A stretch of 26,384 nucleotides of DNA from Escherichia coli (GTDB taxonomy: Bacteria > Pseudomonadota > Gammaproteobacteria > Enterobacterales > Enterobacteriaceae). The translations under genes were made by a program, and so were the position numbers. The notes under the pieces are model-generated. The model made no database searches. It was not told the DNA's origin and was given only the letters and a program-made list of their open reading frames with translations. The DNA is taken from NCBI RefSeq assembly GCF_003334765.1, contig NZ_QOWT01000044.1. One strand, given 5' to 3'. Shown here one piece after another: positions 17,586-18,807 of this stretch; positions within the stretch are counted from its first letter, which is position 1; the number at the start of each line of letters is the position of its first letter.

Positions 17586-17611
17586 GCCGGATGGCAGAGT
17601 TGCCACCCGGC
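17586..17611. terminator. Hairpin between convergent ung and yfiF; possible bidirectional terminator
   Basis: CCGGATGGCA / TGCCACCCGG imperfect stem (one mismatch) with 4-nt loop in the 47-bp gap between the two stop codons. Confidence 0.4.
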
Positions 17612-17618
17612 TGATTTA

Positions 17619-18656
17619 TCAGGCTTTATTCTGACGCCACCATTCACCAAGCAAAACGCCGGTTGCGACAGAGATATTCAGCCCGGCAACGTTGCCCGTA
17701 CCGTCAATCTTCACGCGCAGATCGTTCGGATCGCGTGCGGCATCCGGTAACCCTTCATATTCCTGACCCAGCACCAGTACCATTTTCGCTGGCAGACTAG
17801 TTTTGAACAGCGGTTTACCCTGCTCGCTGGAAGTGGTCACTACGGTGTAACCTGCCTGACGGAAATCATCCAGCACGTTAACAATGTTGTCGCCAGTAAT
17901 CGGCTGAACGTGCTCTGCGCCGCCTTCTGCGGTACGGATAGCCGCCCCCGACTCCAGCAGTGCCGCATCCTGCACCACGACACCTTTCACGCCGAAGTGC
18001 GCGCAGCTGCGCATCATGCCACCCAGGTTATGCGGGTTAGATTCGTTTTCCAGTGCCAGAACGCAATCCTGCGCGCCTGCCTGGCTTACCCACTGCTGCA
18101 CGGTTGTACCGTTACGCTTTTTGATCAAGAAGCAAACGCCGCCGTGATGTTCCGTGCCTGACGCTTTTGTCAATTCCGCTTCATCCACCACATGGTACGC
18201 TTTGCGGTTTGCTGCCATCCAGCGCAAAGCTTCTTTAAAACGCGGCGTTACACTCTGGATAAACCAGGCGCGAACAATCGCTTCCGGACGGCTCTGGAAA
18301 AGTGCCTGACATGCATTTTCGCCGTAGACGCGGGTTTCTTCCGCACGCTGACGACGCAACACTTCCGGATCAATAAAACTTTTACCACTGATGCCACCGT
18401 GATCGGCCTTTTCCGGCGTCTCATCACCCGGCGCGCGGGAAACCGTGCGCCACGGCGAATCTTCCCACTTGCGGTCACGGGGCTGACTCTGTTTGTCATC
18501 GCGGGCGGGGCGACGGCCACCGTCAGCACGAGATTTTCCTGGACGCCCGCCCCCTTTCCCGGTACGCGGGTTGTGGGTACGTTTATCAGAATCATCATCA
18601 CTGCGGACATACATCACTTTGACCTTGCCGCTTTTACCTTTCATTTCATCGTTCAT
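17619..18656 (-). CDS. yfiF: Predicted SpoU/TrmH-family RNA 2'-O-methyltransferase YfiF
   Basis: Track ORF trimmed to [22 protein letters not shown]... (345 aa); GGAG Shine-Dalgarno 9 nt upstream; basic Arg/Gly/Lys-rich N-terminal region of about 95 aa ahead of the methyltransferase domain. Confidence 0.88.
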
Positions 18657-18779
18657 GCTTTTCTCCACCAGCGCTGCGCGAAGCGCGCAGATTACCCGAA
18701 GTCCGCGCGGTTCGCCATGATTTCGTACCAAAGCCTGCGACTATCATACCTATTGAATAAAACAGATTGTTGTCTGGAA

Positions 18780-18807
18780 CAATGTCCCCGATAATATGTA
18801 ACATATT
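18780..18807 (+). promoter_or_regulatory. Candidate trxC promoter
   Basis: TTGTCT (18780-18785), 16-bp spacer, TAATAT (18802-18807), about 55 bp upstream of the trxC ATG. Sequence-only guess. Confidence 0.3.

What the first reader, a model, noticed from the sequence alone, without database searches (positions are those of the whole stretch)
18372..18656. Basic Arg/Gly/Lys-rich N-terminal extension on the predicted methyltransferase YfiF
The first roughly 95 residues (KGKSGKVKV...[37 protein letters not shown]) are low-complexity and strongly basic, resembling RGG-like RNA-binding tails, and precede a SpoU/TrmH-type domain. As far as I know, the RNA target is unassigned. The gene sits among other RNA-modification and RNA-remodelling genes (trmN6, srmB, tapT). 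A GC-rich hairpin (18674-18690) lies just upstream of its Shine-Dalgarno.
Basis: inference. Interest (0 to 1): 0.3.

Follow-up and report, generated by a model that had tools for sequence, protein, structure and literature searches.

The report
Disordered basic tail of YfiF methyltransferase
The flagged stretch encodes the real, conserved, disordered and net-positive N-terminal tail of E. coli YfiF, an RlmB-like RNA methyltransferase whose methylation target is still unknown. The tail was described in 2007 and the protein's RNA binding was shown by CLIP in 2024, so the finding is correct but not new.

Summary
The window is E. coli K-12-like. The finding covers codons 1-95 of yfiF (17619-18656, minus strand, 345 aa).

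**Observation: confirmed.**
- Residues 1-95 are predicted disordered (pLDDT about 50), hydrophilic and net +7 (pI 10).
- They precede an L30e-like domain plus a SpoU domain.
- The tail is mixed-charge (24% K+R, 17% D+E), has no RGG motif, and is not simple low complexity.
- Across 81 distinct Enterobacteriaceae sequences, 52 of 108 tail positions are invariant. These form blocks ([33 protein letters not shown]) around a hypervariable RD/RE/DRPR repeat spacer, which is shortest in Escherichia.

**Most likely role (inferred):** an RNA-tethering arm for a large-subunit rRNA or pre-50S substrate.

**Novelty:** already known.
- The basic disordered extension was published by Tkaczuk et al. in 2007.
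- OOPS and iCLIP of YfiF were published in 2024.
- The methylation site remains unassigned.

- The gene-neighbourhood argument is weak.
- The upstream hairpin is real, but what is conserved is sequence, not pairing.

**Side result:** about 45 nt of leader plus codons 8-21 are almost invariant at the nucleotide level. This is a candidate cis-regulatory element.

The parts
17619..18656 (-). yfiF coding sequence (345 aa plus stop)
   Evidence: ORF and translation. RefSeq annotation. NCBIfam equivalog NF008117 scores 667.6 bits against a cutoff of 267 and covers residues 1-345.
18372..18656 (-). Residues 1-95: predicted disordered, net +7 N-terminal tail (the finding)
   Evidence: Composition. pLDDT about 50 with no secondary structure. 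No PDB sequence relative.
18594..18635 (-). Codons 8-21 ([14 protein letters not shown]): invariant peptide block with almost no synonymous change
   Evidence: Third-position conservation is 0.95 here against 0.60-0.75 elsewhere in the gene. The [KR]V.V.Y motif recurs in distant homologues.
18501..18566 (-). Residues 31-52: conserved G/R-rich basic patch ([22 protein letters not shown])
   Evidence: Net charge is +6 per 20 residues. The patch is conserved across Enterobacteriaceae.
18468..18491 (-). Residues 56-63: hypervariable spacer, the site of RD/RE/DRKR/DRPR repeat insertions in other genera
   Evidence: Extension length ranges from 108 to 139 aa with indels only here. Mean conservation is 0.45. 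Enterobacter mori carries 15- and 30-nt tandem repeats here.
18429..18458 (-). Residues 67-76: conserved [10 protein letters not shown] motif
   Evidence: PWRT, SRA and P76 are invariant in all 81 Enterobacteriaceae sequences; S67 and V72 are conserved in at least 80%. An [ST]PW motif is present in 13 of 63 long-tailed homologues, against 0.6 expected.
18333..18404 (-). Residues 85-108: conserved linker [24 protein letters not shown], including predicted helix 97-106 that abuts the L30e-like domain
   Evidence: 14 of 24 positions invariant. Helix in the AF2 model. RxQRxEE recurs in distant homologues.
18114..18329 (-). L30e-like substrate-binding domain (SpoU_sub_bind, residues 110-181)
   Evidence: Pfam PF08032, E = 1.2e-14.
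17649..18062 (-). SpoU methylase (SPOUT) domain, residues 199-336
   Evidence: Pfam PF00588, E = 1.6e-31. Aligned to RlmB 1gz0. Foldseek top hits are RlmB, RlmR, TsnR, YsgA, AviRb and MRM3. N207, R216, E299 and N327 are conserved.
18674..18690 (-). GC-rich inverted repeat CUGCGCG-CUU-CGCGCAG upstream of the Shine-Dalgarno
   Evidence: Sequence. Folding energy -10.4 kcal/mol. Invariant except G18688 to T, which breaks a pair in about a third of taxa. The 3' arm is not kept in more distant orthologues.
18660..18702 (-). Near-invariant block upstream of the ATG (CATCGGGTAATCTGCGCGCTTCGCGCAGCGCTGGTGGAGAA), including SD GGAG at 18663-18666
   Evidence: Top-base frequency is 0.955 over 71 distinct sequences, against 0.64-0.85 for the same interval of trxC, ung, patZ and tapT. 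The core GGTAATCTKC persists at 52-63% protein identity. No Rfam match.

Best explanation
The region encodes a translated, selectively maintained, intrinsically disordered N-terminal arm of YfiF. YfiF is a paralogue of the 23S rRNA Gm2251 methyltransferase RlmB.

The arm is modular. It has four conserved short blocks: an N-terminal KVKVMYVR segment, a G/R-rich basic patch, [10 protein letters not shown], and a DPE..RRQRAEE helix that docks on the L30e-like domain. These are separated by a charged spacer of variable length.

The most likely role (inferred, not shown) is RNA tethering. The basic patch would give long-range electrostatic capture of a large structured RNA, most plausibly 23S rRNA in a pre-50S particle. 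The conserved aromatic blocks would fold on binding to make specific contacts. This would position the L30e-like and SpoU dimer for 2'-O-methylation of a still unidentified nucleotide, or for a non-catalytic assembly role.
For: **Shown here.**
- Coding selection acts on the tail. Codon positions 1 and 2 are 0.94-0.96 conserved against 0.60-0.62 for position 3 in blocks 22-55 and 64-75. All indels are in frame.
- 52 of 108 tail positions are invariant.
- Disorder is predicted for 1-95 and a helix for 97-106.
- Among 131 representative homologues, 63 carry N-terminal extensions of 60 aa or more. Median length is 124 aa, 60 of 63 are net positive (median +9), and Arg makes up 16.7%.
- Motifs are shared far above shuffle expectation.
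- The catalytic motifs are intact.
- Nearly all characterised top structural relatives with this two-domain architecture act on the large-subunit rRNA or sit on large-subunit assembly intermediates: RlmB, RlmR, TsnR/NHR, YsgA, AviRb, MRM3 and the T. brucei mitoribosomal assembly-intermediate chains.

**From papers.**
- The positively charged, presumably disordered N-extension is shared with eukaryotic members of the RlmB (COG0566B) and AviRb/RNMTL1 (COG0566C) groups (PMC1829167).
- YfiF co-purifies with ribosomal proteins and rRNA-modification enzymes (PMC3384335).
- YfiF is RNase-sensitive in OOPS and crosslinks to rRNA and tRNA. The top motif AACCUUUACW occurs once in 23S rRNA, at nt 2070-2079.
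Against: - No experiment separates the tail from the folded domains.
- The iCLIP used arabinose-induced, plasmid-borne YfiF-His. It gave peaks spread over 16S, 23S, 5S, tRNAs, tmRNA and sRNAs, so specificity is unclear.
- The tail carries 17% acidic residues and an invariant DDDSD run, which is not what a pure RNA-binding tail needs.
- Strict conservation of short blocks is equally typical of protein-docking motifs.
- To my knowledge, every known 2'-O-methyl site in E. coli rRNA and tRNA already has an enzyme: RlmB, RlmM, RlmE, RsmI, TrmH, TrmJ and TrmL. No vacant site is known.
Confidence: 0.5

Rival explanations
1. The tail is mainly a protein-docking or localisation module. Its conserved short linear motifs would bind partners such as RNase E (degradosome), RNase R, RluC or PhoL. 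The mixed-charge R/D/E repeats would partition YfiF into ribonucleoprotein condensates.
For: - Invariant short blocks are separated by a spacer of variable length, which is a typical short-linear-motif architecture.
- Orthologues carry charge-alternating DDRKR, DRPR and RGRERGRD repeats.
- Reported physical partners are Rne, Rnr, RluC and PhoL.
- YfiF is listed among RNase E interactors enriched in large particles (PMC13106914).
- YfiF was pulled down with FkpB.
Against: - The interactions come from high-throughput pull-downs that may be bridged by RNA.
- E. coli itself has almost no repeat spacer (8 residues), so the repeats cannot be essential.
- No partner-binding motif was identified.
- The tail alone has no detectable sequence relative in the PDB.
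Confidence: 0.2
2. The tail is regulatory. It would be an autoinhibitory or turnover element, such as a disordered N-terminal degron or a charge-patterned lid over the RNA-binding surface. It would tune YfiF level or activity with growth phase.
For: - YfiF RNA binding changes between exponential and stationary phase.
- An invariant acidic DDDSD run sits next to basic blocks.
- The start of the gene is under unusual nucleotide-level constraint, which suggests tight expression control.
Against: - There is no direct evidence.
- AF2 does not place any tail segment on the folded domains.
- The net positive charge of tails across 60 of 63 homologues points to nucleic-acid binding.
Confidence: 0.12
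3. The tail is a functionally neutral low-complexity appendage produced by repeat expansion, or the annotated start is wrong and the true protein begins further downstream.
For: - Low pLDDT.
- A repeat-prone spacer with DNA tandem repeats.
- An internal in-frame Met15 preceded by AAGG.
Against: - 52 of 108 positions are invariant.
- Positions 1 and 2 are far more conserved than position 3, and the frame is kept through all indels.
- ATG plus GGAG at the annotated start is conserved in essentially all of the orthologues examined.
- The NCBIfam equivalog profile spans residue 1 onward.
- The upstream in-frame TTG extension is not conserved as protein; it is frameshifted in the C. freundii group.
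Confidence: 0.03

Closest known systems
RlmB (YjfH), E. coli 23S rRNA Gm2251 2'-O-methyltransferase
   Same: Same two-domain architecture (L30e-like SpoU_sub_bind plus SpoU knot). It is the best sequence and structure match (1gz0). The motif residues are conserved.
   Different: RlmB has no N-terminal tail; the alignment starts at YfiF residue 108. YfiF scores below both RlmB equivalog cutoffs (117.8 against 160.15, and 92 against 366). YfiF's target is unknown.
Mitochondrial and eukaryotic relatives MRM1 (Pet56) and MRM3 (RNMTL1)
   Same: L30e-like plus SpoU enzymes acting on large-subunit rRNA. [quoted passage not shown] The MRM3 dimer is seen on assembly intermediates (7oi6 and 9hcd among the Foldseek hits).
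   Different: The eukaryotic extensions include targeting peptides. There is no sequence similarity to the YfiF tail.
Other bacterial L30e-like plus SpoU rRNA methyltransferases: T. thermophilus RlmR (Um2552), B. subtilis YsgA, TsnR/NHR (Am1067), AviRb (Um2479)
   Same: Same fold and dimeric architecture (TM-score 0.7-0.8 normalised to target length). All target domain II or domain V of 23S rRNA.
   Different: None has a 95-residue disordered basic tail. Sequence identity is 15-21%.
RGG/RG-motif RNA-binding tails
   Same: Disordered, Gly/Arg-rich and net positive, with a 22-residue G/R patch.
   Different: No RGG or RG repeats: 0 RGG and 2 GGR. The tail has 17% acidic residues. Conservation is sequence-specific rather than compositional.
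Basic disordered tails of bacterial ribosome-biogenesis factors and DEAD-box helicases (SrmB, DeaD, RhlE, RluB), and arginine-rich mixed-charge (RD/RE) domains
   Same: Net-positive disordered appendages on RNA-remodelling enzymes. Orthologue spacers are RD/RE/DRPR repeats. This resemblance rests on my own knowledge, not on a test.
   Different: The YfiF tail is N-terminal and built of invariant blocks. E. coli has almost lost the repeat spacer.

Membership tests
SpoU/TrmH (SPOUT) RNA 2'-O-methyltransferases | SpoU_methylase domain detectable by profile | tested here: met
   PF00588, E = 1.6e-31, residues 199-336.
SpoU/TrmH (SPOUT) RNA 2'-O-methyltransferases | Three conserved motifs with the catalytic Asn/Arg (motif 1), Glu (motif 2) and Asn (motif 3) | tested here: met
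   N207 and R216, E299 and N327 are conserved in 81 orthologues and in the 103-sequence set. E. coli deviates from the family consensus at P318D, E324A and S325G.
SpoU/TrmH (SPOUT) RNA 2'-O-methyltransferases | Knotted alpha/beta fold | tested here: met
   The AF2 model has pLDDT above 90 for 101-345. Foldseek matches RlmB, RlmR, TsnR, AviRb and TrmH at probability 1.00. This is prediction only.
SpoU/TrmH (SPOUT) RNA 2'-O-methyltransferases | SAM-dependent 2'-O-methyl transfer to a defined RNA nucleotide | not testable with these tools
   No site is reported in any held paper.
RlmB (Gm2251) equivalog | Score above the curated equivalog cutoff | tested here: not met
   TIGR00186 scores 117.8 against 160.15. 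NF008386 scores 92 against 366.
YfiF equivalog (NCBIfam NF008117 / PRK10864) | Full-length match above cutoff, including the N-terminal extension | tested here: met
   667.6 bits against 267. Protein residues 1-345 match profile positions 1-344.
L30e-like NTD plus SpoU rRNA methyltransferases | SpoU_sub_bind (L30e-like) domain N-terminal to the SPOUT domain | tested here: met
   PF08032, E = 1.2e-14, residues 110-181.
RGG/RG-motif RNA-binding region | Clustered RGG or RG repeats (at least two RGG within a short distance) | tested here: not met
   Regex scan of residues 1-110 finds no RGG and only GGR at 36 and 46.
Intrinsically disordered basic RNA-binding tail (functional class) | Predicted disorder and net positive charge | tested here: met
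   pLDDT 47-52 for residues 1-95. Net +7, pI 9.98.
Intrinsically disordered basic RNA-binding tail (functional class) | The tail itself binds RNA | not testable with these tools
   OOPS and iCLIP were done on the whole protein only.
Structured cis-regulatory RNA (for the upstream hairpin and leader) | Base pairs supported by compensatory changes, or a match to a described family | tested here: not met
   No Rfam hit. RNAalifold finds 1 of 29 pairs with a compensatory change. The only frequent change in the hairpin breaks a pair. The leader MFE z-score is 0.10.

The most novel reading that the evidence does not exclude
The start of yfiF carries an undescribed cis-regulatory element. About 45 nt upstream of the ATG (core GGGTAATCTKCGCGC, kept down to 52-63% protein identity) plus codons 8-21 are almost frozen at the nucleotide level across Enterobacteriaceae. 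This could be an anti-Shine-Dalgarno or operator RNA through which YfiF (an RNA-binding protein) or another factor controls its own translation. Alternatively it could be an atypical promoter with a GC-rich discriminator that ties this orphan methyltransferase to growth-rate control. In parallel, the tail's invariant KVKVMYVR and SPWR blocks would be specific docking motifs for a pre-50S site. That would make YfiF an assembly factor whose catalytic target is substoichiometric or absent.
Probability: 0.2. Interest if true: 0.5.

Novelty: already known. Interest (0 to 1): 0.2.

Why it matters
YfiF is, to my knowledge, one of the last two SpoU-type methyltransferases in E. coli without an assigned substrate (the other is LasT). 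Its deletion slows growth (PMC11066096). Knowing what the tail contacts would narrow the search for the substrate, or show that the protein works as a ribosome-assembly factor rather than as a modifier.

The finding as stated adds nothing to published knowledge. What this check adds:
- a block-level map of the tail, showing which residues to mutate;
- evidence that the spacer is dispensable in length;
- a strongly conserved leader and early-CDS element that any expression or complementation construct should take into account.

Tried and rejected
1. **Upstream TTG start (370-aa ORF).** Rejected. The upstream 'peptide' is frameshifted in the C. freundii group, and its conservation is at the DNA level.
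2. **Alternative-frame ORF 18248-18610 (minus strand, 120 aa) as the cause of synonymous constraint.** Rejected. Its ATG is lost (ACG) in C. braakii and Kluyvera, and its open length varies from 12 to 181 codons.
3. **Leader as a mimic of rRNA.** No shared word of 10 nt or more with the rrn operon. The single 9-mer match is within shuffle expectation.
4. **Known RNA family.** No Rfam match at E up to 10 other than chance snoRNA and lncRNA hits.
5. **Stable, conserved leader structure.** The MFE z-score is 0.10 and there is no covariation. The predicted pairing between the SD and codons 17-20 is broken by the common U to A variant.
6. **Sigma-54 promoter (TGGC-N10-GC).** The spacing fits in Salmonella, Enterobacter and Klebsiella. 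The GC element is absent in E. coli K-12, Pluralibacter, Trabulsiella and Kluyvera. The sigma-70 scan found nothing.
7. **The tail fused to other domains, or present as a free protein.** A search with residues 1-108 returned only short sequences, many of them annotated as partial YfiF. There was no PDB relative.
8. **Functional gene cluster with trmN, srmB and tapT.** Not conserved beyond Enterobacterales.
9. **Taxonomy of distant long-tailed homologues.** Cluster look-up gave almost no names.
10. **GeZi et al. 2021.** This paper, on the YfiF replication-timing phenotype and the 'dormancy factor' idea, is not held.

Full report
**Identity of the locus.** The window matches E. coli chromosomes at 100% identity. 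The segment 17500-18900 is present in all 5426 complete E. coli genomes and is annotated ung, yfiF ('tRNA/rRNA methyltransferase') and trxC. The minus-strand ORF with ATG at 18656 and stop at 17619-17621 gives the 345-aa YfiF. The finding's coordinates, 18372-18656, are exactly codons 1-95, and the quoted peptide is correct.

- Residues 1-95 contain 23 K+R, 16 D+E and 13 G. Net charge is +7, pI 9.98 and GRAVY -1.70. Residues 109-345 have pI 6.66 and GRAVY -0.21.
- Pfam finds the L30e-like SpoU_sub_bind domain at 110-181 and SpoU_methylase at 199-336.
- The best solved relative, RlmB (1gz0), aligns only from residue 108 onward.
- AlphaFold2 with a 103-sequence alignment gives pLDDT 47-52 and no secondary structure for 1-95. 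A helix follows at 97-106, and pLDDT is above 90 for the two domains.

Two qualifications apply.
- The tail is a polyampholyte. Only residues about 25-60 are strongly basic, and there is an invariant DDDSD run.
- It contains no RGG motif, only two GGR.

**Anatomy and selection.** I recovered 80 orthologous loci from Enterobacteriaceae, at 74-99% protein identity, and aligned them. The tail is modular.
- Residues 1-55 are nearly fixed: [40 protein letters not shown].
- Residues 56-63 are a hypervariable site. Other genera carry 3-31 extra residues there of DDRKR, DRPR[SD] or RGRERGRD-type repeats. Escherichia has the shortest version.
- [10 protein letters not shown] is almost entirely invariant.
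- Residues 77-84 are variable and acidic.
- [31 protein letters not shown] is nearly invariant.

In numbers, 52 of 108 tail positions are invariant. The L30e-like domain has 59 of 76 and the SpoU domain 65 of 161. Codon positions 1 and 2 are 0.94-0.96 conserved against 0.60-0.62 for position 3 in blocks 22-55 and 64-75. All indels keep the frame. The tail is therefore translated and under purifying selection. The spacer expansions are DNA tandem repeats of 15 and 30 nt in Enterobacter mori.

**Wider family.** A search of 1.84 billion cluster representatives gave 355 hits at E below 1e-30.
- Of 131 near-full-length homologues among the top 150, 63 have N-terminal extensions of 60 aa or more. 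Median length is 124 aa and the maximum is 368 aa.
- 60 of 63 are net positive (median +9). The median fraction of charged residues is 0.38, and Arg makes up 16.7%.
- A subset shares the tail motifs far above shuffle expectation: [ST]PW in 13 of 63 against 0.6 expected, an N-terminal [KR]V.V.Y strand-like motif in 8 against 0, and R.QR.EE in 10 against 0.6.
- Some tails are long arrays of DRPR or RRDDRPRFERDGE repeats.
- Searching with the tail alone finds only short sequences, many of them annotated as partial YfiF, and nothing in the PDB.

**What the protein is.**
- NCBIfam places it in the YfiF equivalog NF008117 (667.6 bits against a cutoff of 267). The profile spans the tail.
- It falls below both RlmB cutoffs.
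- The catalytic motif residues N207, R216, E299 and N327 are conserved.
- Foldseek's best PDB matches are RlmB, T. thermophilus RlmR (Um2552), TsnR/NHR (Am1067), B. subtilis YsgA, AviRb, the human and mouse MRM3 dimer on mitoribosomal large-subunit intermediates, and T. brucei mitoribosomal assembly-intermediate chains.
- Nearly all characterised enzymes among these top matches work on large-subunit rRNA. This is the main basis for inferring a 23S or pre-50S substrate.

**What is already published.**
- Tkaczuk et al. 2007 (PMC1829167) describe YfiF as a gammaproteobacterial duplicate of RlmB. [quoted passage not shown] They list YfiF as an unproven 2'-O-ribose methyltransferase.
- Sergiev et al. 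2012 note co-purification with ribosomal proteins and rRNA-modification enzymes.
- The 2024 Mol Syst Biol paper (PMC11066096) reports several results.
  - YfiF is RNase-sensitive in OOPS.
  - Its RNA binding changes with growth phase.
  - Its deletion has the strongest growth defect among the new RNA-binding proteins.
  - iCLIP gives crosslinks to rRNA, tRNA, csrB/C, arrS, chiX and its own mRNA.
- That iCLIP used arabinose-induced pBAD YfiF-His. Its motif table spreads over 16S, 23S, 5S, many tRNAs, tmRNA and sRNAs.
- The exact top motif AACCUUUACU occurs once in 23S rRNA, at nt 2070-2079.
- None of these papers dissects the tail or identifies a methylated nucleotide.
- To my knowledge, all known Nm sites in E. 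coli rRNA and tRNA are assigned to other enzymes. YfiF remains an orphan.
The proposed CLIP has been done, and the observation itself is not new.

**Mechanism.** I favour (confidence 0.5, inferred) a tethering arm.
- The G/R patch would provide electrostatic capture of a large RNA.
- The invariant aromatic blocks (Y16, W69) would fold on binding.
- The helix at 97-106 would link the arm to the L30e-like RNA-binding domain.
- The variable spacer would act as a length-tolerant linker.

The main rival (0.2) is protein docking or condensate partitioning. Rne, Rnr, RluC and PhoL are reported partners. A regulatory or degron role (0.12) cannot be excluded. A neutral appendage or a wrong start codon is essentially refuted.

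**Neighbourhood claim.** trmN (12155-12892) and srmB (13024-14358) lie beyond yfiE, eamB, grcA and ung. tapT lies beyond trxC and is transcribed divergently.
- In other Enterobacterales the block (trxC)-tapT-(patZ)-pssA stays next to yfiF.
- In more distant homologues the neighbours are ribH-nusB, pssA alone, or unrelated genes.
- This is synteny by descent, not evidence of functional coupling.

**The hairpin and the leader.**
- The inverted repeat at 18674-18690 is real: 7 bp, loop CUU, -10.4 kcal/mol. About 5% of shuffles of the intergenic region give such a stem.
- Across 71 distinct enterobacterial sequences the whole block 18660-18702 is almost invariant. Top-base frequency is 0.955, against 0.64 (trxC), 0.79 (ung), 0.81 (patZ) and 0.85 (tapT) for the same interval in the same genomes. 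The roughly 10 nt just upstream of the block vary freely.
- Codons 8-21 show almost no synonymous change: 0.95 against 0.60-0.75.
- The only frequent substitution in the hairpin, G18688 to T, breaks a pair. It shifts the predicted fold to one that pairs UCUUC with the GGAGA Shine-Dalgarno.
- In orthologues at 52-63% identity, a core related to GGGTAATCTKCGCGC persists while the 3' arm does not.
- There is no covariation, no Rfam match and no unusual stability.

It may be an RNA operator or anti-SD element. It may instead be promoter DNA: TGGCGA, a 17-bp spacer, TAATCT and a GC-rich discriminator, which would place the TSS inside the hairpin loop. The TSS is not known to me, so I leave this open. 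The Dub-seq paper's unexplained yfiF-trxC fragment synergy, which its authors attributed to the intergenic region, may be related.

**Verdict.** Novelty: already known. Interest is low (0.2). The conserved leader and early-CDS element and the block map of the tail are the only new leads.

Noticed in passing
window 18660-18702 and 18594-18635 (minus strand): Nucleotide-level near-invariance of about 45 nt upstream of the yfiF ATG and of codons 8-21 across 71 distinct Enterobacteriaceae sequences. Conservation is 0.955 in the leader and 0.95 at third positions, against 0.64-0.85 for neighbouring genes' leaders and 0.60-0.75 for other third positions. A core related to GGGTAATCTKCGCGC persists at 52-63% protein identity. 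It is either a cis-regulatory RNA or promoter DNA.
   Followed up: partly
window 17586-17611: An 11-bp inverted repeat (GCCGGGUGGCA-ACUC-UGCCAUCCGGC, -22.6 kcal/mol) lies in the 47-bp gap between the convergent ung and yfiF genes. It is probably a shared bidirectional terminator.
   Followed up: partly
window 18740-18790: A conserved block with repeated ATAG elements (ACAAT..GTTTTATTCAATAGGTATGATAGTC) lies between yfiF and trxC. From my own knowledge it looks like the OxyR site of the trxC promoter. It was not tested here.
   Followed up: no
window 17679-17703 (YfiF residues 318-325): In motif 3 of the SpoU domain, the enterobacterial lineage has Asp/Asn/Glu where 70 of 103 family members have Pro (IPGTG becomes IDGTG). 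Escherichia also has Ala-Gly where the family has Glu-Ser before the invariant Leu-Asn. Whether this affects SAM binding or activity is unknown.
   Followed up: partly
L091 1100-1700 (source of P0005): In one orthologue, the called protein starts in the wrong frame. The YfiF-type N-terminus ([22 protein letters not shown]... followed by GRGDRDRDGQR repeats) is in another frame. The frame changes within or just after the repeat-rich part of the tail, from either an assembly error or a real frameshift. Repeat spacers of this gene are error-prone in assemblies.
   Followed up: partly
window 18248-18610 (minus strand, +1 frame relative to yfiF): A 120-codon open frame overlaps the tail-coding region. 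It is a by-product of the R/D/G-rich codon composition and is not conserved: the start is lost and its length varies from 12 to 181 codons.
   Followed up: yes
L084 4567-6134: In one distant homologue, the YfiF-like gene follows ribH-nusB on the same strand with a 14-nt gap. This suggests co-transcription with an rRNA antitermination factor.
   Followed up: no
L090 3001-4824 (P0007): An orthologue next to tapT and patZ carries a 368-residue tail made of about ten copies of a roughly 30-residue unit (RRDDRPRFERDGERKPRFNDDRRSEGRGEG). This is an extreme expansion of the spacer.
   Followed up: partly
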